Source of the DNA: a virus
Lineage: Duplodnaviria > Heunggongvirae > Uroviricota > Caudoviricetes
Length of the DNA stretch: 21,072 nucleotides
IMG/VR virus record: IMGVR_UViG_2648501437_000019
Span: 1 to 21,072 of that record
Strand: one strand, 5' to 3'
Positions 4,142-18,213 of the stretch are shown here, piece by piece. A program made the translations under genes and the position numbers. Every line of letters begins with the position of its first letter. Position 1 is the stretch's first letter. The notes below the pieces were generated by a model. The model worked only from the letters and a program-made list of their open reading frames with translations. It was not told the DNA's origin and ran no database searches.

Positions 4142-4143
4142 AT

Positions 4144-4974: not shown

Positions 4975-4982
4975 CTGAGAAG

Positions 4983-5008
4983 AGGGCCAGAAACGGCCCT
5001 TTCTCTAT
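4983..5008 (+). terminator. putative intrinsic terminator
   Basis: AGGGCC (4983-4988), loop AGAAAC, GGCCCT (4995-5000), then TTCTCTAT. The 13-mer TTTCTCTATAGCC after it also follows the 2672-2690 hairpin (2693-2705). Confidence 0.5.
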
Positions 5009-5023
5009 AGCCACCAGCTGCCG

Positions 5024-5105
5024 CAGGGAAATTTTCAGAAGCGGCGAGGAACGTATTCATGAGCCGACGGGGAACGGCCAGGATTTTTTCGGGAAACGGC
5101 TGCAT
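5024..5105. repeat. second iteron-like array, same repeat family as 1841-1976
   Basis: CAGGGAAATTTT 5024-5035; CGAGGAACGTATT 5045-5057; CGGGGAACGGCCA 5068-5080; CGGGAAACGGCTGCAT 5090-5105. Cores about 21-24 bp apart. Confidence 0.55.
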
Positions 5106-5230
5106 TTGCCTTTGTGTAGAAAAAAACATCGGGAAGCTGGTGGAATCCAACCAGCGGTTGTCGGACAGGTGAGCGGGGAAAATTATGATGACTTTCGTCA
5201 CCTGAGACATCCAGATTTCTTTCGTAGCAT

Positions 5231-5273
5231 AATCACATACGTGATTAAGTGGTGTGATTATGTGAAAAATCAC
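5231..5273. promoter_or_regulatory. operator-like cluster of AATCAC/GTGATT half-sites
   Basis: AATCAC-ATAC-GTGATT palindrome at 5231-5246; further half-sites GTGATT at 5254-5259 and AATCAC at 5268-5273. Confidence 0.4.
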
Positions 5274-5504
5274 GCGCACATAATACGCGAGCGGATACGG
5301 AACAAAACAAAATGCCGATCCGCGCCGACAAATAAACGCGGATCATAAAGCAAGACTAAAAGCCAATGATTAACTATGCGCTATAACGCGTTTTAAGCGC
5401 GTTAATGTGTTAAGTAATGGGTATGTACTGGCAAGGATATAAAAGCGCGTCTATGGCGTTATTTTGGCGCTTATTTTTATGTTGTTGGAGTGAGTTAAAG
5501 ACAA

Positions 5505-5530
5505 TAAAAAACGCGCCATCAATGGCGCGT
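5505..5530 (-). terminator. intrinsic terminator, minus strand
   Basis: GC-rich palindrome ACGCGCCAT/ATGGCGCGT (5511-5530) preceded on the plus strand by AAAAAA, which is a U-run after the hairpin on the minus strand. Confidence 0.55.
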
Positions 5531-5551
5531 TATTGTGGAAGTATTGGAAAC

Positions 5552-5576
5552 GAAAAAAGCGCCCATAGTGGGCGCT
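5552..5576 (-). terminator. intrinsic terminator, minus strand (possibly bidirectional)
   Basis: AGCGCCCA-TAG-TGGGCGCT (5558-5576), flanked by AAAAAA on the plus-strand 5' side and CGATTTTATTTG on the 3' side. Lies just downstream of the stop at 5582 on the minus strand. Confidence 0.6.
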
Positions 5577-5581
5577 CGATT

Positions 5582-5812
5582 TTATTTGTGTAAACTGATT
5601 TTAAATCCCATTTCTACGAACGCTTTTAACATTAAAAATATATCAGCGTCGTTCACGTCTGCTTTTTTTCGCTCCTGGTCGCTCAATAAGTCAATTTTGC
5701 GCGTCGTTTCATCTATAAGCTCGACTACGCGCCCAGCGTAACCAGCGATCCCAGCGATGCGATTAACATAATATTCATTATGGACGTTAACGCCAGCGAT
5801 AAGAACAAACAT
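5582..5812 (-). CDS. small hypothetical protein (76 aa)
   Basis: ATG at 5812 preceded on the minus strand by AAGGAG 8 nt upstream; terminator downstream. Confidence 0.55.
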   Translation of the reverse strand: MFVLIAGVNVHNEYYVNRIAGIAGYAGRVVELIDETTRKIDLLSDQERKKADVNDADIFLMLKAFVEMGFKISLHK

Positions 5813-5832
5813 GATTAAGCTCCTTAAAAAAA

Positions 5833-6036
5833 TTAAATAGAATTTTGAAGTTTTCCGATTAATGCGCTTAAACGTAAGTATTCACGTTTGCGCTTGCAAT
5901 CTCGCTTGCTGTTAAGCAAATCAGAAAACGTAAAATTTAATTGGTCGCGTTGCGCGATTAAATCATCGATTAATTCTAGTTTATAAGCGCGATACTTTGC
6001 GCGATATTCCGCGCGGATCTTGTCATAGCTGACCAT
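5833..6036 (-). CDS. small basic hypothetical protein (67 aa)
   Basis: ATG at 6036 preceded by AAAGGAG about 9 nt upstream on the minus strand. Confidence 0.55.
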   Translation of the reverse strand: MVSYDKIRAEYRAKYRAYKLELIDDLIAQRDQLNFTFSDLLNSKRDCKRKREYLRLSALIGKLQNSI

Positions 6037-6054
6037 TTTTCAAAGCTCCTTTAA

Positions 6055-6073
6055 AGCGCCCATAGTGGGCGCT
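6055..6073. repeat. second exact copy of the 19-bp palindrome AGCGCCCATAGTGGGCGCT
   Basis: Identical to 5558-5576; with flanks about 25 bp match with one mismatch. Confidence 0.55.
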
Positions 6074-6085
6074 TGATTCCATTAA

Positions 6086-6736
6086 TTACGCTTTGAAAGC
6101 ATCAGCTAAATAATTGTAGAAATCATTTTTAATGAAGCGATATTGCTGAGTACCAGCTTTTGCACTCCCAGCTCCTTTGACTTTTTCAACAAGTCCAAGA
6201 CGTTCGCAAAGATTGATCAACTGGTTGGCTTGAGTATAGCCAGCGTCCAATTTAATTTCACACGCTTTTTTAGCTTCATTCATTAAATCGAAAACAGCGC
6301 CATTGGTGAACGTGTCGATCTCGTCGTTAATCATATCGATTAAAGCGAATACACGAGATCCTGACATATCAGCGACGGAATAAACACATTTACCAGCTTT
6401 AATGGATTTAACCAGATAAACCAGTTTTTCCAGTGAATAACTATTAGTCATTGCATCACGGAAAAATACTTCTGGCGCTTGTTTGCTTGCTTTAATCGCA
6501 TAGTAGAAAACAGAGCATAATTTTTCGTCTTCTACTGCGTTTACGACGTTGTTGATGAAGTAAGCAAGTTTAGTGGTCGCAGCTTGCATATTTGCTTTGT
6601 CTGCTTTAGTGTGCGTACCATTTTTATAATGTTCGTTATATGTTTGAGTTGCCAGATCTGCTTTTTCGCGCAGCTCGTCGGATACAATAGATGCAGCTTC
6701 AATGATGGACTTTTTAGAAATGATAATGTTAGCCAT
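6086..6736 (-). CDS. hypothetical protein (216 aa)
   Basis: ATG at 6736 (MANIIISKK...) with AAGGA SD 7 nt upstream on the minus strand; the listed ORF start at 6811 lacks an SD. Confidence 0.65.
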   Translation of the reverse strand: MANIIISKKSIIEAASIVSDELREKADLATQTYNEHYKNGTHTKADKANMQAATTKLAYFINNVVNAVEDEKLCSVFYYAIKASKQAPEVFFRDAMTNSYSLEKLVYLVKSIKAGKCVYSVADMSGSRVFALIDMINDEIDTFTNGAVFDLMNEAKKACEIKLDAGYTQANQLINLCERLGLVEKVKGAGSAKAGTQQYRFIKNDFYNYLADAFKA

Positions 6737-6984
6737 GATAATATCCTTACGAAAAATTAAAATGAATTTATTTTTTACTGTCGTTAGCCAGCTCGCTTTC
6801 GACGAGTTCAATTATCGATACGTGAAAAAAGATTGCAAGTGTTTTTTTAAATTTTTTGCAGGGGTGAAAGCCCTAGAAATAAAAGAGAGAGCGTCGAAGG
6901 TGTTCCCTAAATAAATAATCAATTCGGGCCTTTAACCTTATATATTTATACGGGGTGGCATTGAAAGAGTTTTAAATGAATGGC

Positions 6985-7017
6985 ATGTAAAATAATAACC
7001 GGACTTAGCCGGTTATT
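6985..7017 (-). terminator. putative terminator, minus strand
   Basis: AATAACCGG (6994-7002), loop ACTTAG, CCGGTTATT (7009-7017), followed on the minus strand by an A/U-rich stretch. Confidence 0.4.
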
Positions 7018-7029
7018 ACCCTTATAGAT

Positions 7030-7554
7030 TTAAAATGGAAGGATTCGTTCAACCCAATCGAAGAAAACAAGTATTTTTCTGCCGTCTTCTAACTTAAGAG
7101 TGACCTGGCAAGCATCAACGCCTCTTGACACCCCTTCAATTTCACGACCGTCTGCCATGTAGACCCTTATAGATTGGTCGTTTTGATAAGCCTTGCGACA
7201 TATCGCAAAAAAGTCACGGCGTGATGGCTGATTGTCAACATAGTCTGGATGTATTGTTAGCCTACCTTTGAACTCGCGAGCAATGCCATCGATTACACCT
7301 GATTCAATTGTGCTAATGCGCTCAAGTGGGAGTCTTATACGATTTTCTTTATCATATGGAAGCGGGCATAAATCTAGCTTATTGCGGGAAGGCATTGTCC
7401 CCTGAACGTACATGCAAAACACCTGACCGTCTTCAAGCGTGACTCTTACAGGAATGTTGTTCTTCCGCCAGAACATAAGTATGTTTTCAGCATGTTCGTA
7501 GTCTCGCGGCCAGACTTCAGCCGGTATGCCGTAGGTGATGTCCGATGTTCTCAT
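7030..7554 (-). CDS. hypothetical cytoplasmic protein (174 aa)
   Basis: The start ATG overlaps the upstream stop (ATGA at 7551-7554), so it is translationally coupled. Confidence 0.6.
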   Translation of the reverse strand: MRTSDITYGIPAEVWPRDYEHAENILMFWRKNNIPVRVTLEDGQVFCMYVQGTMPSRNKLDLCPLPYDKENRIRLPLERISTIESGVIDGIAREFKGRLTIHPDYVDNQPSRRDFFAICRKAYQNDQSIRVYMADGREIEGVSRGVDACQVTLKLEDGRKILVFFDWVERILPF

Positions 7555-8150
7555 TCTGATACTCTTAGAGGTGTTTTCAGCAACCCAAATTTAAATTCTT
7601 TGTTACCAACGACAAAGAAGGGAACCTCAACATAGATTTTTTTATCGACGGATTTAGAGTTCGCTGTTTTCTGTATGTCACGAACGATACGTTTTGAGGT
7701 ATTTTCATCGATAAACAATACCTTTCCACTTGTATTCCCTTCAGCCTTGGCGTAAGTAACGATAGGGTCTTCATTGCCAACCCTAATGTTTACTTGGCAA
7801 CCTGTTGTAGCCATTTCATCACAGTAAAGTGTGCCGTCTTGAACTTCTAAAACAATTCCAGATGGCTTCATGGCTTCGTCAGAGCTTACATTAACGTTTT
7901 CTGGTACAGCGGTCCCGTTAATTTGCAACCGTAATCTTTCTTTTCCTCCATTAAGTATTGTTTCTTCTGCGTTGTCTGAGAATCTGAACCAAACTGGCTG
8001 ATTCAGACCTCGTGATTTGTATTCTACTACATCTTCGGAGGTAAACATGCTGTACGTTTTTTGCATGTCAGAGGCGAAATCTGATAATGCGTTGGCGGAA
8101 AACGCCGGGAGGCATATACAAGCAAGGAGTAACGAAAGTTTCATTTTCAT
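7551..8150 (-). CDS. hypothetical secreted protein with N-terminal signal peptide (about 199 aa precursor)
   Basis: MKMKLSLLLACICLPAFSANA-LSD: basic n-region, hydrophobic core, AxA-type cleavage motif (ANA). The listed start at 8165 is TTG, so ATG 8150 is preferred. Confidence 0.6.
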   Translation of the reverse strand: MKMKLSLLLACICLPAFSANALSDFASDMQKTYSMFTSEDVVEYKSRGLNQPVWFRFSDNAEETILNGGKERLRLQINGTAVPENVNVSSDEAMKPSGIVLEVQDGTLYCDEMATTGCQVNIRVGNEDPIVTYAKAEGNTSGKVLFIDENTSKRIVRDIQKTANSKSVDKKIYVEVPFFVVGNKEFKFGLLKTPLRVSE

Positions 8151-8165
8151 ATCATGATAATCCAA

Positions 8166-8654
8166 TTATTTAACATCACACTTTCTAAGTTTTTCTATTT
8201 GTTCTAATTTTTCATGATCATCATTTAGATTTCCTTCGACTATCTCCGTTTCAAGTTTGCTGATTAGCATGTTAAGTGCGTTGTAGTTATTGCATTTTAC
8301 TTTGTAGGCGTAGTATGACCTTGTCCCTGGTTTTTGTACACCCATATCATTAAAGTTAGAGCTTAAAGTATAACCTTCAAGTTCAACCCCTTTTATTGTT
8401 GGAAGAATTATATTTAATGGTTCTAATTTAAATGGGTAGATATAAATATGTGATATGAAGTACTCTTCTGAAGAGATTTTCTTCATGTCTTTTGTGATTG
8501 AAACTGAATATTTACGGTTCCGAGTGATATAAAATTTTGTGCATCTGTACAGCTCTAAGTTGAATAGATAATATTTGTCTTTAAAAAGAACATCTTTTCC
8601 ATGTGATATTTTATGTCGTAAAGAGTTAATTATTTTGTTTATGGAAATACTCAT
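8166..8654 (-). CDS. hypothetical protein (162 aa), strongly AT-rich gene
   Basis: ORF with G+C about 23-30% in hand-counted 60-nt stretches; K/N/I/Y-rich product. Stop lies 15 nt upstream of the next start. Confidence 0.55.
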   Translation of the reverse strand: MSISINKIINSLRHKISHGKDVLFKDKYYLFNLELYRCTKFYITRNRKYSVSITKDMKKISSEEYFISHIYIYPFKLEPLNIILPTIKGVELEGYTLSSNFNDMGVQKPGTRSYYAYKVKCNNYNALNMLISKLETEIVEGNLNDDHEKLEQIEKLRKCDVK

Positions 8655-8763
8655 CTACAGTATCCGACCTTAGTTATCAATTGAAAAGCCTACAAATATC
8701 GTTCTGCCAATCAAGAAATTTTTTCAGCCGGAGGTGTGTACTTCAAAAAATGTGATGGATGTC

Positions 8764-8793
8764 ACATGCAGGTGCTCTCATACACCTGCATGT
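8764..8793 (-). terminator. terminator-like hairpin
   Basis: 11-bp perfect stem ACATGCAGGTG (8764-8774), 8-nt loop, CACCTGCATGT (8783-8793), 7 nt downstream of the stop at 8800; the U-run is displaced by about 17 nt. Confidence 0.35.
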
Positions 8794-8799
8794 AGACTA

Positions 8800-9366
8800 T
8801 TAATCATTCAATAATCTATATTTTCTTTTGATTAAATCTTCACCTTTTTTGGTGAACACAAAACCAAATTGCGATTTTTTGTTCAGCCTCAGTACTCTGT
8901 TATCCAACGCATCGGTTGATGGAATCAATGTTTGATCATCTATCCAATTAAGTAGCGTAAGAAAGTTCAGCAGCCTCAACGTTGTTGTGCGAAGCTCTTT
9001 CGATATATTTTCAATGCTGGCAATTCGTCTTTCTTTTTTCTCAGGTGGTACAGATAATTGTTCTTGAGGTTTCGTGGATAGATAATCAATTTCGTTTGCT
9101 GCATCGAATGATATGTGTGGCGTAATTTTGCTAAAAAAGCCTTTCGCTGACTCACTTGATAATAAACCAGACCTATTCATATCGTTTGTTATTCTGTACA
9201 GGAGTGGACTGTGTTTCATTTCAGGATAACGTTGATAAAAGTTAAGCAATTCAAAAGCAGCATTAGCACCAACAATAAAATCAGAAGGATCGCTGACTTT
9301 CCAGAAAGAATGATTTTTCTTAGCGCCAGTGGTGTCAACAAATGATAATTCTTTTAACCAACTCAT
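8800..9366 (-). CDS. hypothetical protein (188 aa)
   Basis: ATG at 9366 (MSWLKEL...) with AAAGGAG SD; the upstream in-frame ATGs at 9399 and 9396 lack an SD. Confidence 0.6.
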   Translation of the reverse strand: MSWLKELSFVDTTGAKKNHSFWKVSDPSDFIVGANAAFELLNFYQRYPEMKHSPLLYRITNDMNRSGLLSSESAKGFFSKITPHISFDAANEIDYLSTKPQEQLSVPPEKKERRIASIENISKELRTTTLRLLNFLTLLNWIDDQTLIPSTDALDNRVLRLNKKSQFGFVFTKKGEDLIKRKYRLLND

Positions 9367-9399
9367 GATGTGCTCCTTTCTAACAAGTGAGCACATCAT
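9365..9399 (-). promoter_or_regulatory. hairpin sequestering the SD and start codon of the 8800-9366 gene
   Basis: Perfect 11-bp inverted repeat ATGATGTGCTC (9365-9375) and GAGCACATCAT (9389-9399) with a 13-nt loop. On the mRNA the SD spans the loop/3'-arm junction and the ATG overlaps the end of the 3' arm. Confidence 0.45.
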
Positions 9400-9431
9400 A
9401 GAATTAGTAGATAGGGGGTAAATATAAAATG

Positions 9432-9710
9432 TTACGGCAACCTGCTCAGTATTTCCTCTAAATCTTTTTTTGTCATATTGGAGTTTTCATAGATGCGCAT
9501 GATTTTCTCACGCGTCTTAGCGGAAACCCCAACGGCAGATGTGACTTTGTCAAATTCAGCCATAGTCATCGTCTCCAGAATGGCATTGATAACTTCAGCC
9601 TTAGACATCTTGATTTTTTTCTCTTTGAGTTTTATTTGGAATTTTCCAAGTTTTTCATTGGCCTTATCAGACAATGCCACTTGGCAATAAGTTGTTTTCT
9701 TTTCGCTCAT
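9432..9710 (-). CDS. small hypothetical protein (92 aa)
   Basis: ATG 2 nt after the helicase stop codon; lysine-rich. No confident motif. Confidence 0.55.
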   Translation of the reverse strand: MSEKKTTYCQVALSDKANEKLGKFQIKLKEKKIKMSKAEVINAILETMTMAEFDKVTSAVGVSAKTREKIMRIYENSNMTKKDLEEILSRLP

Positions 9711-9712
9711 AA

Positions 9713-11272
9713 CTAATCTCGTTTCAGAACTCCAAAATCGAATGCGCCATCAATAGGCAATACACCTTCCGCAAAGCCAGGTGTGGTGTCGATGATGTGT
9801 TTTCGCTCATAAGAGTGAGACAACAGGTATTTGTTGCTAATGTCAATGAAATCAGTGATAAAACACACGTTTGCCTGATTCTTCTTGGCTCGTAAGCCAC
9901 GACCGACACGTTGTCTCATTTCAACTTCTGCTTTCCCACCACCAGCAAGAATGACCGCACCAACGCTTGGCACATCAACACCGACATCCAGAATAGTCGA
10001 GCCTATTAAAACATCTATTTCGCCAGACGCTAAACTGTTCAGCTTTGCTTGTCTTGTCGCCTGGTTCGATTCCCCATAGATAAAGTCAACTCTAAGGCCT
10101 GACTCCTTCATCATCTCCATCAGGATTTGCCCGTGGCGTTTAAGACGAACTAGAGTCATACAATTGAGAGAATGTTGCTTATAGAGCAATGCCTCGCGCA
10201 CTATGGCCTCGTTACGTCCCAAATTATACACGATCCCCAACTGATAAGCCTTTTGGTAGGCGGTGCTCATACCAACTCTAAAATTGAGGTGTTTGTTGGC
10301 AAGTTCGGCCTTGATTCTGGCCTCGTCTGGCTTGTAGGCAACTTTATGATAAAGGAAGTACGGCTTTGCCAGAATGCCTCGATCAATCAGGTACTTTTCT
10401 GTGACTTTAATTTCAATTCGCCCGGCCACCGCCATCAGACGCATGTTGGCTTCCGTCGAATCCTTCATGAACGGCGTGGCCGTAAGCGCCAGACGATAGT
10501 CTGCGTTCACACATAATCTGGCAATGTCATAGAAATTAGAACCTGAAGACTCATGCGCCTCTTCCAGAATAAGCAGAGACACACTTGAAAGGAAGCGTTT
10601 CACCAAGTCCCGACGTTTGAGGTGGTAGCTCTTCTTATCTGGAGTTGCATCGCGTGGTGGTTCTTCAAGGAAACTTGCCAGAGTTTGAACTGTAGCGACG
10701 TTGATATGTCGTGATACCTGGAACTCACCCGAGCCAATGACTCCAACCTTTTGGTCTTTTAACCACGGTTCGCCATTTTTGGCGCGGTAGTCGATGGATC
10801 TCTGGAAGTTTTCGGCCATTTGAAACATCAGAACAGAGCGGGTTGTTAAAAATAATGTCATTCGACCGATACGTGCAGCTGCTTTACAGGCAACGTTAGA
10901 TTTCCCGCCACCAGTAGCGATTTGCGCAATCATCATTCCCTCTCGAACTAGTGTTTCCACAGTCTGATCCTGATACGCATAATCAGGATTGTATGGGAAT
11001 GGGTTAACCGCCGGATTTGGTTTACCAAGCGCCGGGGCTTTGTCTTTGCGGATATGAACACATCTGATGCCCGCCTTGTTCAAGTTCGCCGCTACAGGCT
11101 TGGCAAAGCCAGCAGGGAACGAGTTTTTACTCCAGTTGAACATCGTGCTTGTGCCCTTCCAGTCGCCAGTCTCGACTTCGTAGCTCAACATTTGCTGCAC
11201 CAGTTGCTTTACCTTGTCATCTGCGCCAGAAATAAGCGCATTTACTGCGTTAGATACAATCCGAACAGTCAT
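9713..11272 (-). CDS. superfamily-2 DEAD/DEAH-box-type helicase (519 aa)
   Basis: Motif I ATGGGKS, motif II LILEEAH, motif III LTATP, motif VI QRVGRGLR; strong SD AAGGAAAGAGG upstream of the ATG at 11272. Confidence 0.85.
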   Translation of the reverse strand: MTVRIVSNAVNALISGADDKVKQLVQQMLSYEVETGDWKGTSTMFNWSKNSFPAGFAKPVAANLNKAGIRCVHIRKDKAPALGKPNPAVNPFPYNPDYAYQDQTVETLVREGMMIAQIATGGGKSNVACKAAARIGRMTLFLTTRSVLMFQMAENFQRSIDYRAKNGEPWLKDQKVGVIGSGEFQVSRHINVATVQTLASFLEEPPRDATPDKKSYHLKRRDLVKRFLSSVSLLILEEAHESSGSNFYDIARLCVNADYRLALTATPFMKDSTEANMRLMAVAGRIEIKVTEKYLIDRGILAKPYFLYHKVAYKPDEARIKAELANKHLNFRVGMSTAYQKAYQLGIVYNLGRNEAIVREALLYKQHSLNCMTLVRLKRHGQILMEMMKESGLRVDFIYGESNQATRQAKLNSLASGEIDVLIGSTILDVGVDVPSVGAVILAGGGKAEVEMRQRVGRGLRAKKNQANVCFITDFIDISNKYLLSHSYERKHIIDTTPGFAEGVLPIDGAFDFGVLKRD

Positions 11273-11354
11273 AAACCTCTTTCCTTAGTGCCTTTTGTAT
11301 GTTATTTGGCTATTATAATAAGTAAGTGATTACTTAGTGGATTGTAGCAATAAA
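11273..11354. promoter_or_regulatory. divergent promoter region between the helicase and the late plus-strand operon
   Basis: 82-bp spacer with TATAAT at 11314-11319 and the palindrome AAGTAA-GTGA-TTACTT at 11321-11336. Confidence 0.4.
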
Positions 11355-12035
11355 ATGGATGTAAAAATCACGATTTTGCAGGTTGATGTTGCCAACCTTC
11401 GCCCGAATACCTGGAACACCAATTCGGTTGGTGCGCAGAATTTTGAAAAACTGAAAGGTTCTATCGAAAAATTGGGCTTTTTTAAGCCAATTTTGGCTCG
11501 TGAACTTGAAGATGGATTTTTTGAAATCCTCGGCGGCGAACATCGCTGGCGTGCCGCTATTGAGCAAGGAATTTCAACGGTTCCGGTGCTTTCTGTGGGC
11601 AAAATTAGCGATGTCGTAGCTAAACAGATGTCACTGGTGGACAACGAGCGATACGGTGAAGACGACCAAATCGCATTGCAACGCTTCATTGAAGAAATTC
11701 AGTCAGAACTTGACTATCAACTGTCTGAAATCGCCCCGTATGACGACGAAATCTCGATGGTTTTAGCAAAAGAGGCGGCAATCGACCTTGAAGCACTGGA
11801 GGCGTTGTCTCGTGGTAGTGATGAGCCTGTCGATACCGACAAACGAGAGAAAACCGAACGTGTGGGTGCGGAACATCAGACCATGCGCTTCAAAGTAACT
11901 TTCGATGCGTCAGATCGTGTTGCAGAAACCATAAAAAACATCATCAAAGAGCAGGCTATTAACACCGGTAATGAAATGGAGAACGCTGGTGAGGCTCTGG
12001 TGTGGCTGGTCGACTACTACAAGGAGCGTATGTAA
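11355..12035 (+). CDS. ParB/Srx-like nuclease-domain protein 1
   Basis: ParB/Srx signature ILGGEHRWRAAIEQGISTVPV; acidic C-terminal half. Start taken as ATG 11355 (the listed ORF starts at GTG 11337). Confidence 0.7.
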   Translation: MDVKITILQVDVANLRPNTWNTNSVGAQNFEKLKGSIEKLGFFKPILARELEDGFFEILGGEHRWRAAIEQGISTVPVLSVGKISDVVAKQMSLVDNERYGEDDQIALQRFIEEIQSELDYQLSEIAPYDDEISMVLAKEAAIDLEALEALSRGSDEPVDTDKREKTERVGAEHQTMRFKVTFDASDRVAETIKNIIKEQAINTGNEMENAGEALVWLVDYYKERM

Positions 12036-12703
12036 TGACCAAAAAGTTTGAAATCGTATATCGCGACCCGGCAGATCTTATTCCCTATGAGATGAATGCC
12101 AAAAAGCATGATGAACAGCAGATCCGAGATCTGGCCGCAGCCATTAAAAAGCGCGGATTTGACCAGCCAATTACGGTCGATAAGAACGACGTAATTATTA
12201 CTGGCCACGGCCGCCGTGAGGCTGCAATTTTTGCTGGACTTGAGCGCGTACCGGTTATTGTTCGCGATGATCTCAGTGATGACGAGGTTCGTGCGAAGCG
12301 CCTTGAAGATAACCGACTTGCCAGCATTGATTACGATGCAATTAAGCTACAGAAAGAGCTTGAGTCGCTTGTTCTGGACGATATCGAGGTTTTCGGCTTT
12401 GAAGAGCGTGAGTTGAATGTTCTCGTTGGCAGTATGACAGAAGAAATGGACACCGACTCGCTAGTTATCGATCTTGGCGAAGAAACTAAACGACAGAAGG
12501 ATGAACACACCGAGATCAGTCGTGAAGTTGCAGCGGAAGAAGTACGTGTTGTCGACGTATTGGGCTTTAAAACGCTCCCTGCTGGCTCTGCCATTGTTGT
12601 TGGTGATTTGCTTGCCCACATGGAAGAAATGACGGGAGAAAGCGGGGTAGACGCATTTGTGGCATATGCGGAGAAGATCTCTTCTGGGGAGATGGCTGCA
12701 TGA
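12035..12703 (+). CDS. ParB/Srx-like nuclease-domain protein 2
   Basis: Signature ITGHGRREAAIFAGLERVPV; ATG overlaps the upstream stop (TAATG) with AAGGAG SD at 12021-12026. Confidence 0.7.
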   Translation: MTKKFEIVYRDPADLIPYEMNAKKHDEQQIRDLAAAIKKRGFDQPITVDKNDVIITGHGRREAAIFAGLERVPVIVRDDLSDDEVRAKRLEDNRLASIDYDAIKLQKELESLVLDDIEVFGFEERELNVLVGSMTEEMDTDSLVIDLGEETKRQKDEHTEISREVAAEEVRVVDVLGFKTLPAGSAIVVGDLLAHMEEMTGESGVDAFVAYAEKISSGEMAA

Positions 12704-13365
12704 GCAAATACATCATCAACGTATCGTTTCAGACACGCGTAAATAAAACCACGCGCACGTTGGAAATCGCTGAGTCGTTCGGGCTTGGCCTGGACGAAAA
12801 AGAGTGGACGCTTTACGACAATCTGGAGCTGGAAGTGAAGCAGGGCGATGTGGTGTATATCACCGGCCAATCCGGTTCCGGCAAATCCGTTGTGCTGCGC
12901 GAGTTGCAACGACAGATGAAGGATGAAGGGCTGTCTGTAGCCTCCATCGATGATTTTACCTTCGATAATGAGGTTAACGTCATCGATCAGTTGGGCAAAA
13001 CGACCAGCGATGCGCTTGGGTTGTTATCTATGGCTGGTCTGAACGATGCATATCTGTTTGTTCGCAAGCCTTCTGAAATGTCAGACGGTCAGAAATATCG
13101 TCTCAAGATTGCCAAACTGATTGAGTCAGGCGCTAAAGTGTGGGCTGCTGACGAGTTCGGTGCTGTTCTAGACCGTGTAACCGCTCAGGTTGTGGCATCT
13201 AACCTCCAGCGTGCCGCTCGAAAGGTTGGTGCGACGGTAATGGTGGCGACGACTCACGAAGACCTGAAGAACGCGCTGCGCCCGGATATGCAGATCACCA
13301 AGCACTACAAAGAACGCGTGAAGGTGGAATATCACAATGGTAGTCATGATGAGGTCCATTCATGA
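12700..13365 (+). CDS. ABC-type ATPase (nucleotide-binding domain only, 221 aa)
   Basis: Walker A GQSGSGKS, signature-like SDGQKYRL, Walker B VWAADEFGAVLD, H-loop TTHE; ATGA overlap with the upstream gene. Confidence 0.7.
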   Translation: MSKYIINVSFQTRVNKTTRTLEIAESFGLGLDEKEWTLYDNLELEVKQGDVVYITGQSGSGKSVVLRELQRQMKDEGLSVASIDDFTFDNEVNVIDQLGKTTSDALGLLSMAGLNDAYLFVRKPSEMSDGQKYRLKIAKLIESGAKVWAADEFGAVLDRVTAQVVASNLQRAARKVGATVMVATTHEDLKNALRPDMQITKHYKERVKVEYHNGSHDEVHS

Positions 13366-14252
13366 CGGACATCATCATCAAACGCTACCGCCCTGAAGAG
13401 TTTCCGCGTCATCTGGACTTTCTGGAGCGAATGACTGTCACAAAGGGAACTGTAGAGGACTGGCACGCTCTTAAGTCGCTTCACTACAAAACAGACGGCA
13501 AACCTTTCGCGCCAACATACTATCGCTGCGAACTGGATGACCGTCTGGTGGGCGTCGTGGTTATGGCTTACCCGAAACTACTGTTGGCACCTCGCCACCG
13601 CATGTTTCCTAAGTTGAAACCAACCACTAATACCACCGTGGCTAACCAGTACTGGGGTCGGTACGTGAATAACAACTTTGCGGTGATCAGTCGCTCAGTT
13701 GTGGATACTCAGTATCGTGGCGTAGGCGTCTCTTATCGAATGATTAACCTGGTTAGCAGGATGCATGACCGGCCAATCATTGAGATCCAGTCCTCGATGA
13801 GCAAATACAATCCCTTCGCCATGAAAGCAGGGTTTAAGTTCATCCGCCCTGAGCGACCGAAGAGCTATGAAAGTGCACTGCGTGTGTTCCAGCGCCATTT
13901 CCGCTCCGACCCGGGTGATAACGAGGCGATCGTCAAAGAGTTGTTCGCTATGAGCGAGTCTCGTCGTCGCCGTGCGCTGCGCGATTTGGTGGCGGACTAC
14001 CATAAGAACAGTTCCCTGGCAAAAGCTGGGCGGAATCGTGGCACGACGATTCAGGACATTGCCGACAGTCTGGTGGACGAGGCCAGCATTGTGAAGCTGC
14101 TCAAGGACATTCACAACCTGAGCTTTACGTCTCCGTTGTATGGTGTGTACCGAAACCCTGACTTTGGCCGTCGACTGCCTGACACGCTGCCACTGCTGGC
14201 ATTCGACAAACAACCTTTGGATAAACCGTTAGAAATTGCTTTACCGGCATAA
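13362..14252 (+). CDS. GNAT-fold (acyl-CoA N-acyltransferase-like) domain protein (296 aa)
   Basis: GNAT motif A-like VISRSVVDTQYRGVGVSYRMINLV then NPFAMKAGFKF; ATGA overlap with the ABC ATPase gene. Confidence 0.5.
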   Translation: MTDIIIKRYRPEEFPRHLDFLERMTVTKGTVEDWHALKSLHYKTDGKPFAPTYYRCELDDRLVGVVVMAYPKLLLAPRHRMFPKLKPTTNTTVANQYWGRYVNNNFAVISRSVVDTQYRGVGVSYRMINLVSRMHDRPIIEIQSSMSKYNPFAMKAGFKFIRPERPKSYESALRVFQRHFRSDPGDNEAIVKELFAMSESRRRRALRDLVADYHKNSSLAKAGRNRGTTIQDIADSLVDEASIVKLLKDIHNLSFTSPLYGVYRNPDFGRRLPDTLPLLAFDKQPLDKPLEIALPA

Positions 14253-14261
14253 GGATTTGCC

Positions 14262-14528
14262 ATGACGTTAACCGATAAACAAAAGGACATCATCAAAACG
14301 CTCAATCTCGGTTATGAGCGAGGTCATCTACTTGACCTGGACGAATTGCTTGAAGTTTTGCCGTACAAGACAACCAAGCAAAGTATCCAGTTCTCAATTC
14401 GCGCTCTGATAAAAAAGGGGCTGGTGGAGAAAGGGCATACGCGCCAACGCAGTGACAATCGCTATCACCGCCGAACTCTTGGGTTAACCACTTTAGGTCG
14501 AGCCAAAGCGAAGTTACTGGTGATGTAA
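14262..14528 (+). CDS. small winged-helix-like DNA-binding protein (88 aa)
   Basis: AAGGA SD 6 nt upstream of the ATG; helix-turn-helix-like segment QSIQFSIRALIKKGLVEKG followed by a basic tail. Confidence 0.5.
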   Translation: MTLTDKQKDIIKTLNLGYERGHLLDLDELLEVLPYKTTKQSIQFSIRALIKKGLVEKGHTRQRSDNRYHRRTLGLTTLGRAKAKLLVM

Positions 14529-14561
14529 TCGGTCTGGGAGCTTATTTAAAGACCTGCATCT

Positions 14562-14599
14562 GTATATATAAATAATAAGTAACTTATTAAATATATACG
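14562..14599. promoter_or_regulatory. AT-rich imperfect palindrome of about 38 bp upstream of terS
   Basis: GTATATATAAATAATAAGT-A-ACTTATTAAATATATAC. Followed by direct repeats AAACAAGTTG (14647-14657, 14671-14681) and a hairpin AGAGCGC/GCGCTCT (14685-14704) with a T-run. Confidence 0.45.
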
Positions 14600-14723
14600 G
14601 AAGCAGGCTTCGTAAGACATGCCAGACCTAATTAAACACCCCAGAAAACAAGTTGGTTAGCAGATGCAGTAAACAAGTTGTTTTAGAGCGCATGGACGCG
14701 CTCTGTGTGTTTTAGAGGGATCT

Positions 14724-15356
14724 ATGACGGTCGAAAAAGACGAGGTAAAAACTCGCCTGACACCAGCGGAGTGGGCCGAAGCTGAAGCCAAATGGACGTC
14801 AGGCGAATATACACTCTCAAAGCTTGAGGAAGAGTACGGCATTCGTCGTGAAACACTCTCCAGACATTTCAAAAAGCGAGGATTAGAGAAAGGCGCGGAC
14901 TCTGTTGGGAAGATGGTTCGTGAGTCTCTTAAATCTGACGCAGAGCTTCGCGCTAAAGCCCGTGCGGAAAAGATAGAAGAACGTCGTACACGTTATGACG
15001 GCTGGGCGTATGCGTTGGGGCAGATGGTGATGGTCGAAGTCACTACGGCCAAACGTGAGGGTAAGCCTTTAGGGGCGATTGAGGATTCTCTCAAGAGCTT
15101 ACAGAGAGCCAGTAATACCCTTGCAAAATGCTTTGAAGTTTCGTCCAAAGCATTGGGCATGGATCATGCGGAAAATGACGAGGAAGAAATTCCGAACCTG
15201 GTATTTGGTGAGCTTACGCCTTCCCAGGTGGCGAAATTACGTCAGGAAGACGACGAGCCTGAAATCATCGATGACGAATTGCTTGAGACGTTGGAAGAAG
15301 AAGCTCTAAGCGAATTTGATGCGACAGATGATGGAAGTGAAGGGGAGGACGAATAA
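14724..15356 (+). CDS. terS: terminase small subunit (210 aa)
   Basis: Sits directly upstream of and overlapping terL (TAATG); N-terminal HTH-like region YTLSKLEEEYGIRRETLSRHFKKRG; acidic C-terminus. Confidence 0.7.
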   Translation: MTVEKDEVKTRLTPAEWAEAEAKWTSGEYTLSKLEEEYGIRRETLSRHFKKRGLEKGADSVGKMVRESLKSDAELRAKARAEKIEERRTRYDGWAYALGQMVMVEVTTAKREGKPLGAIEDSLKSLQRASNTLAKCFEVSSKALGMDHAENDEEEIPNLVFGELTPSQVAKLRQEDDEPEIIDDELLETLEEEALSEFDATDDGSEGEDE

Positions 15357-16612
15357 TGGCAATCCCGTCCTCGCTCAGTCTTGTGCAACTGCATTCTGGA
15401 CAGATGAAAGTCTTCCAGTCTCCGCATCGATTTAAAGTTGTTTGTGCTGGTCGACGCTGGGGAAAATCCCGGTTGTCGATCTCCACTATTATTCGTGCGG
15501 CGGCAAAGGAAAAAAAGCAAAGGGTCTGGTATGTCGCTCCTACTTACCAGATGGCTCGCCAGATTTTGTGGGACGATCTACAGGAAGTTCTGCCTCGTAA
15601 GTGGGTTAGGAAAAAGAACGACACCACGATGACAATCGTGTTGAAGAACGGTTCGGAGATCGCCCTCAAAGGTGCTGATAAGCCTGACACTCTGCGCGGC
15701 GTAGCGTTGCATTTTGTAGTGCTTGATGAATTTCAGGATATGAAGGCTGACACCTGGTACAAGGTGTTACGACCTACTCTTTCATCGACACGCGGCGGTG
15801 CACTGATCATTGGTACGCCAAAAGGCTTCTCGGAATTTCACAAACTGTGGACTATAGGCCAGAACGTAGAGCTGCAAAGAAAGGGACAGTGGAAGAGCTG
15901 GCAGTTTGTAACTGCCGATTCTCCGTTTGTACCTACGGCGGAAATTGAAGCTGCTAAGAACGATATGGACCCCAAATCGTTCGCTCAGGAGTACCTGGCC
16001 AGCTTTGAGAACATGTCCGGGCGCGTTTACTACCCGTTCGATCGTAACGTGCATGTAAAACCGCTTCAGTTCAACCCTCGGTTGCCTATATGGGTAGGGC
16101 AGGACTTCAACATTGACCCGATGTCTTCAGTAATTTTGCAACCTCAGCCAAATGGTGAGCTATGGGCAATTGATGAATTGGTGCTCTTTTCCTCTAACAC
16201 GGCAGAAGTTTGTGATGAGCTTGAGAGACGCTTCTGGCGCTGGAAATCACAGGTAACGGTATTTCCAGATCCGGCAGGTGCTTATCGCCAACATGCTCGT
16301 GGGGAGTCTGACGTAGACATATTCAAAGAGAAGGGATTCTTACGTGTCGATTATTCGAAAAAGCACCCGCCAATTGCGGATCGTGTTAATGCTGTTAACC
16401 GAATGCTGATGTCCGCATCTGGAGATATCCGGCTGTATATCGATCCGAAGTGCAAGCATTTGATTGATTCACTGGAAAAAGTCATCTACAAGCCTGGAAC
16501 ACGAGATATGGATAAGACGGGTGGCATTGAGCATAGTGCAGACGCATTGGGCTATCCAGTACATCGTAGGTATCCAGTCAAAAACCGTGTTATTCTTGGT
16601 GGTTCTAGATAG
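15356..16612 (+). CDS. terL: terminase large subunit (418 aa)
   Basis: Walker A VCAGRRWGKS, Walker B HFVVLDEF, C-terminal nuclease-like region; SD AGGGGAGGA upstream. Confidence 0.9.
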   Translation: MAIPSSLSLVQLHSGQMKVFQSPHRFKVVCAGRRWGKSRLSISTIIRAAAKEKKQRVWYVAPTYQMARQILWDDLQEVLPRKWVRKKNDTTMTIVLKNGSEIALKGADKPDTLRGVALHFVVLDEFQDMKADTWYKVLRPTLSSTRGGALIIGTPKGFSEFHKLWTIGQNVELQRKGQWKSWQFVTADSPFVPTAEIEAAKNDMDPKSFAQEYLASFENMSGRVYYPFDRNVHVKPLQFNPRLPIWVGQDFNIDPMSSVILQPQPNGELWAIDELVLFSSNTAEVCDELERRFWRWKSQVTVFPDPAGAYRQHARGESDVDIFKEKGFLRVDYSKKHPPIADRVNAVNRMLMSASGDIRLYIDPKCKHLIDSLEKVIYKPGTRDMDKTGGIEHSADALGYPVHRRYPVKNRVILGGSR

Positions 16613-16638: not shown

Positions 16639-18213
16639 ATGGAATTGAACGACAAACAAATTAAGGATCTGGTGGCGCGACGCCACCCGGAATACGAAAA
16701 GAAAAAAGAACATTGGGACTTCCTCGCCAGCACTTACGCTGGCGGGCGTGGTTGGTTTACAGACAATATCTTTCGTTACTTTAAAGAGGGAGATCAGGAG
16801 TTTAAGGAGCGAGTTGAACGTGCTTATCGCTTCAACCACACTCGTGAGGTGGTAAACCTCATCAACAAATATCTCTTTAAAGAAGACATTCATAGAAATA
16901 TCGAAGAGGCACCAGAGCAGATCCGCAATTTCTGGAAACGTGCGACTCGCCAGAATGCCTCTATTGACTCATTTATGGCCGCTATTGATTTGCAGTCGTC
17001 TATTTACGGTCGCATATGGGTTGTTGTCGATAGCACGATGAGTGGTGATGTTGAGTCAGTAGCTGACGAGAAAAAGAAAGATGCTCGCGCCTACGCCTAC
17101 TGGATTTCACCTCAGCAAATGCTGGATGTGGCATGGGACGACGACGGGAATATGTTGTGGGCGTTAATTGTGGAAGTCGCTCGTGATGACGCAGATCCTT
17201 TTACTTCTACAGGTCAGGAATACCAACGTTATCGTCTGTGGACACAAAACGAGTGGTATCTGTTCCGTGAGGAAGTGAAGAAGGGCGCTGGTGGAGCAGG
17301 TCGCCGTCAGGCAAAAGTTATTTTAGAGGATAGCGGTGAGCATAATCTCGGCGTAGTTCCTGTGTTTCCTGTTGATTGTATTGGAGAAAGTGAATCACCG
17401 TATTTCAGCCCATCGTTGATCGATGATATCGCTTATCTTGATCGTGCGGTTGCAAACTATCTGTCAAACCTTGATGCCATTATTCAGGATCAGACATTTA
17501 GCCAGTTGGCTATACCGGTACAGTCGCTTTTACCTGGTGATGAAAACCACACTAAAGTGCTTGAAATGGGCACAAAGCGAGTCTTCACCTACGATTCTGA
17601 AGGTGGAAACCAGCCGTTTTATCTGTCACCAGACCCGAAACAAGCTCAGATGATCATCACTACGATTAAGACGGTGATTAACGAAATCTACCATTCAGTT
17701 GGTGTAGCTGGTGAGCGAACGAAGCAGGACAACGCACAGGGAATCGATAATTCATCTGGTGCCGCAAAAATGTATGACTTCCAGCGTGTAAATAGCTTGC
17801 TTGTCACAAAAGCAGAGCGTCTGGAAAGGGCTGAACGCCAAATCATGCTACTGGTTGCGAAATGGATGGGGGTAGATCTGGACGAAGACCACTCTTTAAT
17901 TGCGTATCCAGAAAGTTTCGATATTCGTGGCCTTACTGATGAATTTTCTGTTGCCGAGAAACTGTCATTACTTCAGGCACCGGACTCTGTACGTCGTCAC
18001 CAGATGGAAATGCTTATTGAGAAGATTTTCCCGAACATTACTGAGGCGATGAAAAAGGAATTTGATAAAGATCTCTTGAATTTTCCTCCAAAAAATGATC
18101 TAAACACCCTTGAAAATAAGTCGGTACTTACTTATGATCGTGGTGCAGCCCAAGAAAGCGGGCAAGATCAACCCCGAGGGAATGGGGACTCATCTACTCA
18201 AGAGAACGAGTGA
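16639..18213 (+). CDS. portal protein (524 aa)
   Basis: Large gene immediately after terL with an acidic C-terminus; called on position and size, no catalytic motif. Confidence 0.65.
   Translation: MELNDKQIKDLVARRHPEYEKKKEHWDFLASTYAGGRGWFTDNIFRYFKEGDQEFKERVERAYRFNHTREVVNLINKYLFKEDIHRNIEEAPEQIRNFWKRATRQNASIDSFMAAIDLQSSIYGRIWVVVDSTMSGDVESVADEKKKDARAYAYWISPQQMLDVAWDDDGNMLWALIVEVARDDADPFTSTGQEYQRYRLWTQNEWYLFREEVKKGAGGAGRRQAKVILEDSGEHNLGVVPVFPVDCIGESESPYFSPSLIDDIAYLDRAVANYLSNLDAIIQDQTFSQLAIPVQSLLPGDENHTKVLEMGTKRVFTYDSEGGNQPFYLSPDPKQAQMIITTIKTVINEIYHSVGVAGERTKQDNAQGIDNSSGAAKMYDFQRVNSLLVTKAERLERAERQIMLLVAKWMGVDLDEDHSLIAYPESFDIRGLTDEFSVAEKLSLLQAPDSVRRHQMEMLIEKIFPNITEAMKKEFDKDLLNFPPKNDLNTLENKSVLTYDRGAAQESGQDQPRGNGDSSTQENE

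What the first reader, a model, noticed from the sequence alone, without database searches (positions are those of the whole stretch)
11355..14528. Translationally coupled ParB/Srx, ParB/Srx, ABC-ATPase, GNAT-fold operon directly upstream of the terminase genes
Four genes are chained by overlapping stop/start codons (TAATG at 12033-12037, ATGA at 12700-12703 and 13362-13365), which implies a stoichiometric complex. Two paralogous ParB/Srx-fold proteins (GGEHRWRAA and GHGRREAA motifs) are followed by a free-standing ABC nucleotide-binding domain (GQSGSGKS, SDGQ, DEFG, TTHE) with no membrane partner, then a GNAT-like acyltransferase-fold protein, then a small winged-helix protein. ParB-like nuclease-domain genes next to terS are, as far as I recall, usually paired or fused with DNA methyltransferases, and ParB-like ATPases partner with DNA-modifying enzymes (DpdB in 7-deazaguanine systems). 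I cannot assign this ATPase-plus-acyltransferase pairing to any described system. Working hypotheses: DNA modification or anti-restriction, a packaging-associated DNA recognition complex, or an anti-defence module.
Basis: partly seen in the sequence, partly recalled or inferred. Interest (0 to 1): 0.75.

Follow-up and report, generated by a model that had tools for sequence, protein, structure and literature searches.

The report
ParB-guided ABC–GNAT DNA-modification operon (predicted)
This is a real, tightly coupled five-gene operon of an SSU5-type phage-plasmid that belongs to a family already predicted, but never tested, to add an acyl group to DNA bases; it matters because the same module sits on hundreds of Klebsiella, E. 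coli, Salmonella and Yersinia plasmids.

Summary
ParB1, ParB2, an ABC ATPase and a GNAT-fold protein are chained by the stated overlaps. A small winged-helix gene follows 9 nt later, just upstream of terS/terL. The window is an SSU5-like phage-plasmid, 99% identical to Escherichia phage Cyrano.

The pairing is not unassigned. The ABC and GNAT genes are a split form of the fused "ABC-type ATPase with acetyltransferase domain" family (COG2401). The Aravind group predicted this family to acylate a DNA nucleobase (Iyer 2013, cited in Iyer 2021). I found no experimental test.

New here:
- The module is in all 31 isolated phages of this portal lineage and in 26 of 26 related genomic loci.
- Natural fusions join ParB+ABC+GNAT (Bathyarchaeia) and PolB+ABC+GNAT.
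- ParB→ABC–GNAT→terminase order recurs in Gordonia and Streptococcus phages.
- Neighbours elsewhere include a formyltransferase, ASCH and EVE-like domains and DNA methylases.

Best reading (confidence about 0.5): a ParB-targeted, ATP-driven acyltransferase that modifies phage DNA before packaging. The chemistry, the donor and even DNA as the substrate remain untested. It is a new member of a predicted kind.

The parts
11355..12035 (+). ParB1: ParB/Srx N-terminal domain protein (226 aa), with a near-canonical box II (GGEHRWRAA) and a box III-like DNER
   Evidence: Pfam ParB_N E 3e-13 and phrog_723. It aligns to the Spo0J/ParB/Noc CTPase domains in the PDB (E 3e-9). Its closest fused counterpart is the ParB domain of the Bathyarchaeal ParB-ABC-GNAT proteins (E 2e-11).
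12035..12703 (+). ParB2: a second, more diverged ParB/Srx N-terminal domain protein (222 aa; GHGRREAA). Its start overlaps the ParB1 stop (TAATG).
   Evidence: Pfam ParB_N E 1e-8 and phrog_930. Its N-domain resembles the ParB domain fused to phage DNA methyltransferases (phrog_498 E 2e-31; PADLOC MTase_II E 3e-17). It is 45% identical to the ParB that precedes the ABC gene in S. pyogenes prophage 315.4.
12700..13365 (+). Soluble ABC-type ATPase (221 aa) with Walker A GQSGSGKS, signature SDGQ, Walker B ADEFG and H-loop TTHE. It also has a family-specific N-terminal motif (R..EIAESFGLGLDE). Its start overlaps the ParB2 stop (ATGA).
   Evidence: Pfam ABC_tran E 6e-13 and phrog_293. It is 46% identical (E 5e-65) to the N-terminal half of a fused ABC-GNAT protein from an unrelated, probably archaeal, tailed virus.
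13362..14252 (+). GNAT-fold acyltransferase-like protein (296 aa). Residues about 20-165 form the GNAT domain, with motif A YRGVGVSYR. Residues about 170-296 form a family-specific helical domain. Its start overlaps the ABC stop (ATGA).
14262..14528 (+). Small winged-helix-like protein (88 aa), the conserved fifth gene of the operon
   Evidence: phrog_900. It is conserved after the GNAT gene in gamma- and alphaproteobacterial relatives, often overlapping its stop. It has weak profile similarity to MarR/PadR-type wHTH regulators (E 0.002).
14553..14607 (.). AT-rich palindrome with G+C-rich outer arms, lying between the operon and terS. It is adjacent context and a probable cos/pac or regulatory site. 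It is not shown to belong to the module.
   Evidence: Inverted repeats I1/I3. The GenBank records of SSU5 and Cyrano are linearised inside it, at window 14590/14591. The same architecture, with different arm sequences, recurs in distant relatives.

Best explanation
The five genes encode one machine. A GNAT-fold acyltransferase is driven by a soluble ABC ATPase and brought to DNA by two ParB/Srx-type NTP-binding proteins. A small winged-helix protein acts as a fifth component or regulator.

The most likely job is post-replicative acylation of a base in the phage's own DNA, shortly before packaging. The donor would be acetyl or another acyl group from acyl-CoA, or an aminoacyl group from charged tRNA as in Mu Mom. 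The purpose would be to make the DNA refractory to host nucleases.

Proposed mechanism (inferred): ParB and the ABC domain are both nucleotide-gated dimerisation modules. Together they would close around or travel along DNA and present bases to the GNAT active site.

Shown here: the gene anatomy, the folds, family membership, conservation and the fusions.

Inferred, not shown: DNA as the substrate, the chemistry, the timing of expression and the clamp model.
For: 1. Family. The ABC and GNAT genes are collinear halves of fused proteins.
- The ABC gene matches fused residues 22-228 at 46% identity. The GNAT gene matches residues 227-379 at 29% identity.
- A profile search finds 884 relatives, many of them 440-500-aa fusions.
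- The family includes Tenacibaculum phage pT24. Iyer et al. 2021 name this phage as an example of their predicted DNA-nucleobase acylation system.

2. Rosetta-stone fusions to DNA-handling domains.
- ParB_N+ABC+GNAT proteins of about 630 aa form at least 500 clusters, mostly from Bathyarchaeia.
- PolB+ABC+GNAT fusions exist.
- In one phage contig the ABC-GNAT gene overlaps a UDG-PolA gene.

3. Recurrent neighbourhood in unrelated phages.
- Gordonia phage Axumite: gp1 (annotated ParB-like; no Pfam hit here) -> ABC+GNAT -> Formyl_trans_N -> terminase.
- S. pyogenes prophage 315.4: ParB_N -> ABC -> ASCH -> terL.
- Probable archaeal tailed viruses: terS-like -> terL -> ABC-GNAT.

4. Neighbours typical of modification systems: a formyltransferase and an ASCH domain, an EVE-like plus nuclease-like protein, and C5 and N6/N4 DNA methylases and restriction genes.

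5. Precedents.
- ParB2's N-domain is the type fused to phage DNA methyltransferases.
- Phage ParB-like proteins are obligate activators of a DNA thymine dioxygenase (bioRxiv 10.1101/2025.08.14.668559).
- Mom is a GNAT that modifies dsDNA adenine using Gly-tRNA (PMC13219725).

6. The fold is GNAT with motif A conserved. Mom-family models rank near the top among viral structures.

7. Core status. The module is in 31/31 phage records of this portal lineage and 26/26 genomic loci.
Against: - No modification of SSU5-type DNA is reported in the papers I could search. The 2013 paper that made the prediction could not be read.
- No acyl-donor biosynthesis gene, base-flipping motif or DNA-binding domain was identified in the GNAT protein. 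Its C-terminal domain matches nothing.
- The ASCH, EVE and formyltransferase neighbours are single examples. The EVE hit is below Pfam's cut-off.
- Position next to the terminase genes and to a probable cos site fits a packaging role equally well.
- ParB2's NTP-binding motif is degenerate.
Confidence: 0.5

Rival explanations
1. It is a protein acetyltransferase machine acting on DNA-bound proteins. ParB and the ABC ATPase bring the GNAT to nucleoid proteins, terminase/portal components or ParB itself. This would clear or mark phage DNA for replication and packaging, or redirect host transcription.
For: - Phage GNATs that acetylate host proteins are known, for example Rac of phiKMV-like phages as summarised in PMC7824862.
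- The association with the terminase, PolB and ParB fits any chromatin-directed activity.
Against: - The neighbours seen elsewhere (ASCH, EVE-like, formyltransferase, DNA methylases) are typical of nucleic-acid modification, not protein acetylation.
- No candidate target is conserved across bacteria and archaea.
- The authors who defined the family predicted a nucleobase substrate.
Confidence: 0.15
2. It is a packaging-initiation accessory complex. ParB proteins and the wHTH protein recognise the palindrome or cos region next to the operon. The ABC ATPase remodels DNA for terS/terL. The GNAT fold is structural or regulatory.
For: - The operon ends 25 nt before a conserved palindrome.
- The SSU5 and Cyrano records are linearised within that palindrome.
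- The ParB->ABC/GNAT->terminase order recurs in four unrelated phage groups.
Against: - The same fused protein occurs in replication modules joined to PolB.
- It also occurs in integrase-bearing archaeal islands in which my PHROG and Pfam scans found no terminase.
- GNAT motif A and about 37 invariant residues are conserved, which argues for catalysis.
- DNA-modification genes with ParB partners are also commonly found near terminases.
Confidence: 0.1
3. It is an RNA (for example tRNA) acyltransferase analogous to TmcA/NAT10. An ATPase-coupled GNAT would acetylate host or phage RNA to evade RNA-targeting defences or tune translation.
For: - TmcA is the known ATPase+GNAT nucleic-acid acetyltransferase (my own knowledge).
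- ASCH domains are linked to N4-acylcytosine and RNA metabolism (my own knowledge). One sits next to the module in prophage 315.4.
Against: - The partners are DNA proteins: ParB, PolB, UDG-PolA and terminase.
- The ATPase is ABC-type, not the helicase-type ATPase of TmcA.
- No RNA-binding domain was detected.
Confidence: 0.08
4. It is a plasmid partition or maintenance system of the phage-plasmid (ParB centromere binders with an unusual ATPase), or an ABC transporter ATPase as the databases label it.
For: - The element is a plasmid prophage.
- RefSeq names ParB1 'ParB/RepB/Spo0J family partition protein'.
- PHROG and GenBank label the ABC and GNAT genes 'ABC transporter'.
Against: - SSU5 carries a separate ParA-like partition gene about 70 kb away.
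- The module is also present in chromosomally integrated relatives, in Gordonia and Streptococcus phages, and in archaeal integrated elements.
- Neither ParA nor any permease or substrate-binding gene is in the operon.
- The 'ABC transporter ATP-binding subunit' label on the GNAT protein is an annotation carry-over from COG2401.
Confidence: 0.03

Closest known systems
ABC ATPase-GNAT system (COG2401, 'ABC-type ATPase fused to a predicted acetyltransferase domain'), predicted by Iyer, Zhang, Burroughs & Aravind (NAR 2013) and again in Iyer et al. 2021 to acylate a DNA nucleobase
   Same: - Same two catalytic domains in the same order.
- Direct sequence homology to the fused proteins, including the cited exemplar phage pT24.
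- Shared family-specific motifs: FGLG.DE, SDGQKYR, HY[KR], RG.G and NPF..KAG.
   Different: - Here the two domains are separate, translationally coupled polypeptides.
- They are preceded by two ParB paralogues and followed by a wHTH gene.
- The set is a core operon of a ~105-120 kb siphovirus/phage-plasmid lineage.
- The system itself is only a prediction. No activity has been shown for any member that I could find.
Mom of phage Mu (GNAT-fold enzyme that glycylates N6 of adenine in dsDNA using Gly-tRNA; PMC13219725)
   Same: - Phage-encoded.
- The gene lies at the end of the virion genome map.
- The proposed role, post-replicative protection of DNA, is the same.
   Different: - No sequence-level membership: no Mom family hit in Pfam or PHROGs.
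- Mom works alone, without an ATPase or ParB.
- The donor and target base here are unknown.
Phage ParB-like activators of DNA-modifying enzymes (5mYOX thymine dioxygenase partner, bioRxiv 10.1101/2025.08.14.668559; DpdB with DpdA; ParB-methyltransferase fusions)
   Same: - ParB/Srx N-terminal NTP-binding domain proteins without an evident classical DNA-binding domain.
- Encoded next to, or fused with, a DNA-modifying catalytic module, often near terminase genes.
   Different: - The catalytic partner is an ABC ATPase plus GNAT, not a dioxygenase, transglycosylase or methyltransferase.
- Two ParB paralogues are present.
TmcA / NAT10 (ATPase-coupled GNAT that makes N4-acetylcytidine in RNA)
   Same: An NTPase coupled to a GNAT that acts on a nucleic-acid base. 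This is the only characterised ATPase+GNAT logic (my own knowledge).
   Different: - The TmcA ATPase is helicase-type and the substrate is RNA.
- There is no homology beyond the GNAT fold.
- The ATPase here is ABC-type and its partners are DNA proteins.

Membership tests
ABC ATPase-GNAT predicted DNA-modification system (COG2401) | ABC-type nucleotide-binding domain with Walker A, signature, Walker B and H-loop | tested here: met
   Pfam ABC_tran E 6e-13. The motifs GQSGSGKS, SDGQ, ADEFG and TTHE are read in the translation.
ABC ATPase-GNAT predicted DNA-modification system (COG2401) | GNAT-fold domain immediately C-terminal to (here: encoded immediately after) the ABC domain | tested here: met
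   [not shown]
ABC ATPase-GNAT predicted DNA-modification system (COG2401) | Sequence homology to fused family members, including the published exemplar (Tenacibaculum phage pT24) | tested here: met
   The profile search finds fused 440-500-aa proteins. Pairwise E values are 5e-65 and 3e-20 to a fused viral protein. A fused query hits both the window's lineage and pT24.
ABC ATPase-GNAT predicted DNA-modification system (COG2401) | Acyl transfer to a DNA nucleobase | not testable with these tools
   This is a prediction in the literature. I found no experimental report.
ParB/Srx CTPase-type N-terminal domain proteins | PF02195 match above the curated cut-off | tested here: met
   ParB1 scores 50 bits and ParB2 35 bits, against a cut-off of 26.3.
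ParB/Srx CTPase-type N-terminal domain proteins | Conserved NTP-binding boxes (GERRxRA and ENxxR) | tested here: inconclusive
   ParB1 has GEHRWRAA and DNER, aligned to Spo0J/ParB. ParB2 has GHGRREAA and EDNR, which is more degenerate. Nucleotide binding was not testable.
ParABS partition system | Cognate ParA ATPase in the same operon, and a ParB with an HTH DNA-binding domain | tested here: not met
   There is no ParA in the window operon. The ParA-like gene of SSU5 lies about 70 kb away. No HTH domain was detected beyond a low-confidence stretch in ParB1.
ABC transporter | Membrane permease and/or substrate-binding partner encoded with the ATPase | tested here: not met
   All neighbours are ParB, GNAT, wHTH, helicase or terminase genes. 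The same holds in 26 related loci.
Mom family (GNAT DNA adenine modifiers) | Sequence membership in the Mom family and its catalytic residues (R111, S124 of Mu Mom) | tested here: not met
   There is no Mom family hit in Pfam or PHROGs. Structural similarity is no higher than to generic GNATs. Equivalence of residues was not examined.
TmcA/NAT10 | Helicase-type ATPase domain fused to the GNAT, plus a tRNA-binding domain | tested here: not met
   The ATPase is ABC-type. No such domains were detected.

The most novel reading that the evidence does not exclude
SSU5-type phage-plasmids would carry a so far undetected acylated base in their virion DNA, such as an N4-acyl-cytosine or an N6-acyl or aminoacyl-derived adenine. 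These elements include the ~100-kb plasmids of Klebsiella, E. coli, Salmonella and Yersinia pestis. The modification would be written by a new kind of enzyme: a GNAT held in a double nucleotide-gated (ParB/CTP plus ABC/ATP) clamp that moves along DNA. The same machine would be used by archaeal viruses and by Gram-positive and actinobacterial phages.
Probability: 0.35. Interest if true: 0.85.

Novelty: new member of a known kind. Interest (0 to 1): 0.55.

Why it matters
If the prediction holds, this would be only the second GNAT-based DNA hypermodification after Mu Mom. It would also be the first to depend on an ABC ATPase and ParB partners.

The module is common.
- It is on 792 PLSDB plasmids: Klebsiella 307, Escherichia 237, Enterobacter 91, Yersinia 62, Salmonella 49.
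- It is in 259 of 5,426 complete E. coli genomes, always on plasmids.
- Fused relatives of its ABC-GNAT pair are encoded on about 500 IMG/VR viral contigs.

A protective DNA mark would bear on several things: the host range of phage-plasmids that spread resistance genes, the choice of restriction and defence systems able to stop them, and sequencing artefacts.

Cultured phages are available for a direct test: SSU5, Cyrano, nickie, RHEph10, and Gordonia phages of the Axumite type. A 2013 computational prediction is therefore immediately testable.

Tried and rejected
- The Foldseek search against afdb50 could not be run because the library was not available.
- The homology search with the ABC ATPase alone returned only near-identical enterobacterial copies and added little.
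- Literature searches for 'COG2401' and for 'ABC-type ATPase fused to' found nothing.
- The 2013 NAR paper that made the prediction is not held. I rely on its one-sentence summary in the 2021 review.
- Promoter and terminator scans of 11100-14900 gave no more sites than shuffled sequence, so the timing and limits of transcription remain unknown.
- Rfam and tRNA scans of the window were empty.
- PADLOC gave only weak P-loop-level hits for the ATPase (mad3, mad8, PtuA) and none for the GNAT protein. I found no evidence that this is a known defence system.
- I rejected plasmid partition because of the separate ParA-like gene and the module's presence in integrated and non-plasmid elements.
- I rejected an ABC transporter role because no membrane partner is encoded.
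- I considered that linkage to the terminase reflects shared ancestry of a terL-ABC/GNAT block. The terL proteins of the window and of the archaeal-type viruses are barely alignable (E 3e-4), whereas the ABC domains are 46% identical. The association therefore looks independently maintained or horizontally acquired.


Full report
**What the window is.** The 3.3-kb region is 99.3% identical to Escherichia phage Cyrano and 85% identical to Salmonella phage SSU5. The window therefore comes from an SSU5-type phage-plasmid. Megablast finds the region on 792 PLSDB plasmids: Klebsiella 307, Escherichia 237, Enterobacter 91, Yersinia 62, Salmonella 49. It is in 259 of 5,426 complete E. coli genomes, always on plasmids.

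**Check of the observation.** The ORF table and the sequence give these genes:
- ParB1, 11355-12035
- ParB2, 12035-12703
- ABC ATPase, 12700-13365
- GNAT-like protein, 13362-14252
- an 88-aa protein, 14262-14528
- then terS (14724-15356), terL (15356-16612) and portal (16639-18213)

An SF2 helicase (9713-11272) is transcribed divergently.

**Conservation.** A scan of one genome per prokaryotic species found 26 loci encoding the GNAT-like protein. All 26 show the same order: helicase(-) | ParB1-ParB2-ABC-GNAT-(wHTH)-terS-terL-portal, apart from parts missing where a contig ends. This holds in gamma- and alphaproteobacteria at about 40% identity.

Among isolated phages, the 31 records whose portal is at least 46% identical to the window's are exactly the 31 records that encode the GNAT-like protein. 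They comprise Escherichia, Salmonella, Klebsiella, Rhizobium, Pseudomonas (nickie), Stenotrophomonas and Xanthomonas phages. Start/stop overlaps are kept in nickie and RHEph10. The operon is therefore a core feature of a ~105-120 kb siphovirus/phage-plasmid lineage.

**The ABC and GNAT genes are a split version of a fused family.**
- A profile of the GNAT-like protein, searched against 1.8 billion representatives, gave 884 hits. Many are 440-500-aa proteins with an ABC domain at the N-terminus and the GNAT-like region at the C-terminus.
- The window's ABC protein is 46% identical (E 5e-65) to residues 22-228 of one such viral protein. The GNAT-like protein is 29% identical (E 3e-20) to residues 227-379 of the same protein. 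The gene boundary therefore falls at the domain junction.
- JGI and the Cyrano record already use the COG2401 label, 'ABC-type ATPase fused to a predicted acetyltransferase domain'.

**This family has a published prediction.** Iyer et al. [quoted passage not shown] They cite their 2013 NAR paper and name Tenacibaculum phage pT24 as an example. A fused query hits both pT24 and the window's lineage. The pairing is thus described, though only as a prediction. I could not read the 2013 paper and found no experimental test.

**Links to ParB and to DNA.**
- A triple fusion ParB_N + zinc ribbon + ABC + GNAT of about 630 aa forms at least 500 sequence clusters. NCBI assigns several to Bathyarchaeia.
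- Other fusions carry family B DNA polymerase, a TFIIB repeat or an intein.
- In one phage contig the ABC-GNAT gene overlaps a UDG-PolA polymerase gene.
- ParB1 is closest to the fused archaeal ParB domain (E 2e-11).
- ParB2 is 45% identical to the ParB that precedes the ABC gene in S. pyogenes prophage 315.4.
- ParB2's N-domain also matches the ParB domain fused to phage DNA methyltransferases.

**Neighbourhoods elsewhere.**
- About 500 IMG/VR contigs encode the fused protein. The commonest context is a tailed-virus structural module ending in terS-like, terL, ABC-GNAT. Some are integrated next to archaeal-looking genes.
- In low-GC phages the gene lies in the replication module.
- In Gordonia phage Axumite the order is gp1 (annotated ParB-like, but with no Pfam hit here), ABC+GNAT, a Formyl_trans_N protein, terminase.
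- In prophage 315.4 the order is ParB_N, ABC, an 89-aa ORF, ASCH, DUF5681, terL.
- In Bathyarchaeal chromosomes the triple fusion follows two coupled small ORFs. It sits in integrase-bearing islands beside C5 and N6/N4 DNA methylases, an HhH-GPD glycosylase, a restriction enzyme and, once, an EVE-like protein with a nuclease-like tail. That EVE hit is below Pfam's cut-off.

**Interpretation.** I think DNA-base acylation by a ParB-targeted, ATP-driven GNAT is the best-supported reading, at about 0.5. Three lines of evidence point that way.
- The catalytic pair travels with DNA-handling partners (ParB, polymerases, terminase).
- It travels with accessory domains typical of nucleic-acid modification systems (formyltransferase, ASCH, EVE-like, methylases).
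- Two experimental precedents make the logic plausible. Mom is a GNAT that modifies adenine in dsDNA using Gly-tRNA. Phage ParB-like proteins are obligate activators of a DNA thymine dioxygenase, in gene clusters that often lie near terminases.

The clamp-like mechanism, the donor, the target base and the expression time are all inferences.

**Weaknesses.**
- The GNAT fold does not discriminate DNA from protein substrates.
- The C-terminal domain has no known relative.
- The accessory-domain neighbours are single examples.
- I found no report that SSU5-type DNA is modified.

**Rivals.**
- A protein-directed acetyltransferase acting on DNA-bound proteins (0.15).
- A packaging accessory complex (0.10).
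- An RNA acyltransferase (0.08).
- Partition or transport (0.03). A separate ParA-like gene lies about 70 kb away in SSU5. The module also occurs in integrated and non-plasmid elements, and no membrane partner is encoded.

**The adjacent palindrome.** Between the operon and terS lies an AT-rich palindrome with G+C-rich arms (14553-14607). Both the SSU5 and the Cyrano GenBank records are linearised inside it, at window 14590/14591. An inverted repeat with an AT-rich core recurs at the same place, with different arm sequences, in alphaproteobacterial relatives: scores 17-21 against a shuffle maximum of 10. It is probably the cos/pac site or a regulatory site. This keeps the packaging rival alive. 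It also places the operon at the right end of the virion map, as mom is in Mu (the latter from my own knowledge).

**Verdict.**
DNA modification is the favoured hypothesis, but the pairing was already described as a prediction.
- It is a new member of a known, predicted kind. Its own features are split ABC and GNAT genes, two ParB paralogues and a wHTH gene, all as a core operon.
- Interest is moderate to high. The function is untested, the module is very widespread in clinically relevant plasmids, and cultured phages make a decisive test straightforward.

Noticed in passing
window 14553-14607 (also L003 9189-9251, L015 9167-9252, L019 9085-9166, L021 9114-9200, L025 9127-9209): An AT-rich palindrome with G+C-rich outer arms lies between the wHTH gene and terS. 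The SSU5 and Cyrano GenBank records are both linearised inside it, at window 14590/14591. The same inverted-repeat-plus-AT-core architecture recurs in distant relatives with different arm sequences. It is probably the cos/pac site or a regulatory site.
   Followed up: partly
window 14642-14717: Just upstream of terS there are two direct repeats, CAGAAAACAAGTTGGTT and CAGTAAACAAGTTGTTT. TGTTTTAGAG occurs twice, and a terminator-like hairpin lies at 14684-14705. Their function is unknown.
   Followed up: no
L003 7741-7995; L006 7368-7916; L008 7439-8008; L020 6976-7284; L025 7406-7708; L115 5393-5695: The junction between the ABC and GNAT genes is an insertion hotspot in relatives. SSU5-type elements carry an 84-aa ORF there, and others carry 182-189-aa ORFs. 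RHEph10 has an ORF annotated DUF2829 at this position, and I read two Rhizobiales ORFs as DUF2829-like by eye only. DUF2829 is, as I recall, the family of the anti-Thoeris protein Tad2. The window has no insert; the two genes overlap directly.
   Followed up: partly
window 9713-11272 (-): The divergently transcribed SF2 helicase (labelled UvsW-like; best PADLOC similarity is to PbeA) keeps its position next to ParB1 in all 26 related loci. It may be functionally linked to the operon.
   Followed up: partly
L007 9947-12190; L021 9892-12481; L013 about 9927-11392; L027 3493-5031: In several relatives the terL reading frame is interrupted by about 0.9-1.4 kb. This suggests an intein, an intron or a homing-endonuclease insertion. 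One fused ABC-GNAT protein (P0286) carries a Hint/LAGLIDADG intein inside its ABC domain.
   Followed up: no
L114 4322-5014 (nickie gp158); L115 3677-4339 (RHEph10 gp083): RefSeq names the ParB2 orthologues 'DNA methyltransferase'. They are only about 220-230 aa and contain just the ParB domain. This is an annotation carry-over from ParB-methyltransferase fusions. The GNAT-like protein is likewise mislabelled 'ABC transporter ATP-binding subunit'.
   Followed up: yes
L028 (Halomonas sulfidaeris chromosome) 3890-12842: This is a chromosomal copy of the whole block. The helicase, GNAT-like, terS, terL and portal genes are broken into several frames, so it appears to be a decaying prophage.
   Followed up: no
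window about 900-2300: This 1.4-kb stretch is A+C-rich and G-poor (GC skew about -0.2, AT skew up to +0.33). It has no long ORF and contains several degenerate 25-31-nt direct repeats. It is unexplained.
   Followed up: no
L116 (SSU5 record 70-78 kb; outside the window): SSU5 also encodes an unusually long (367 aa) thymidylate-synthase-like protein, a nucleotide pyrophosphohydrolase, DHFR, an AAA/kinase-like protein and a separate DNA methyltransferase. These could bear on nucleotide-level DNA modification in this lineage.
   Followed up: no
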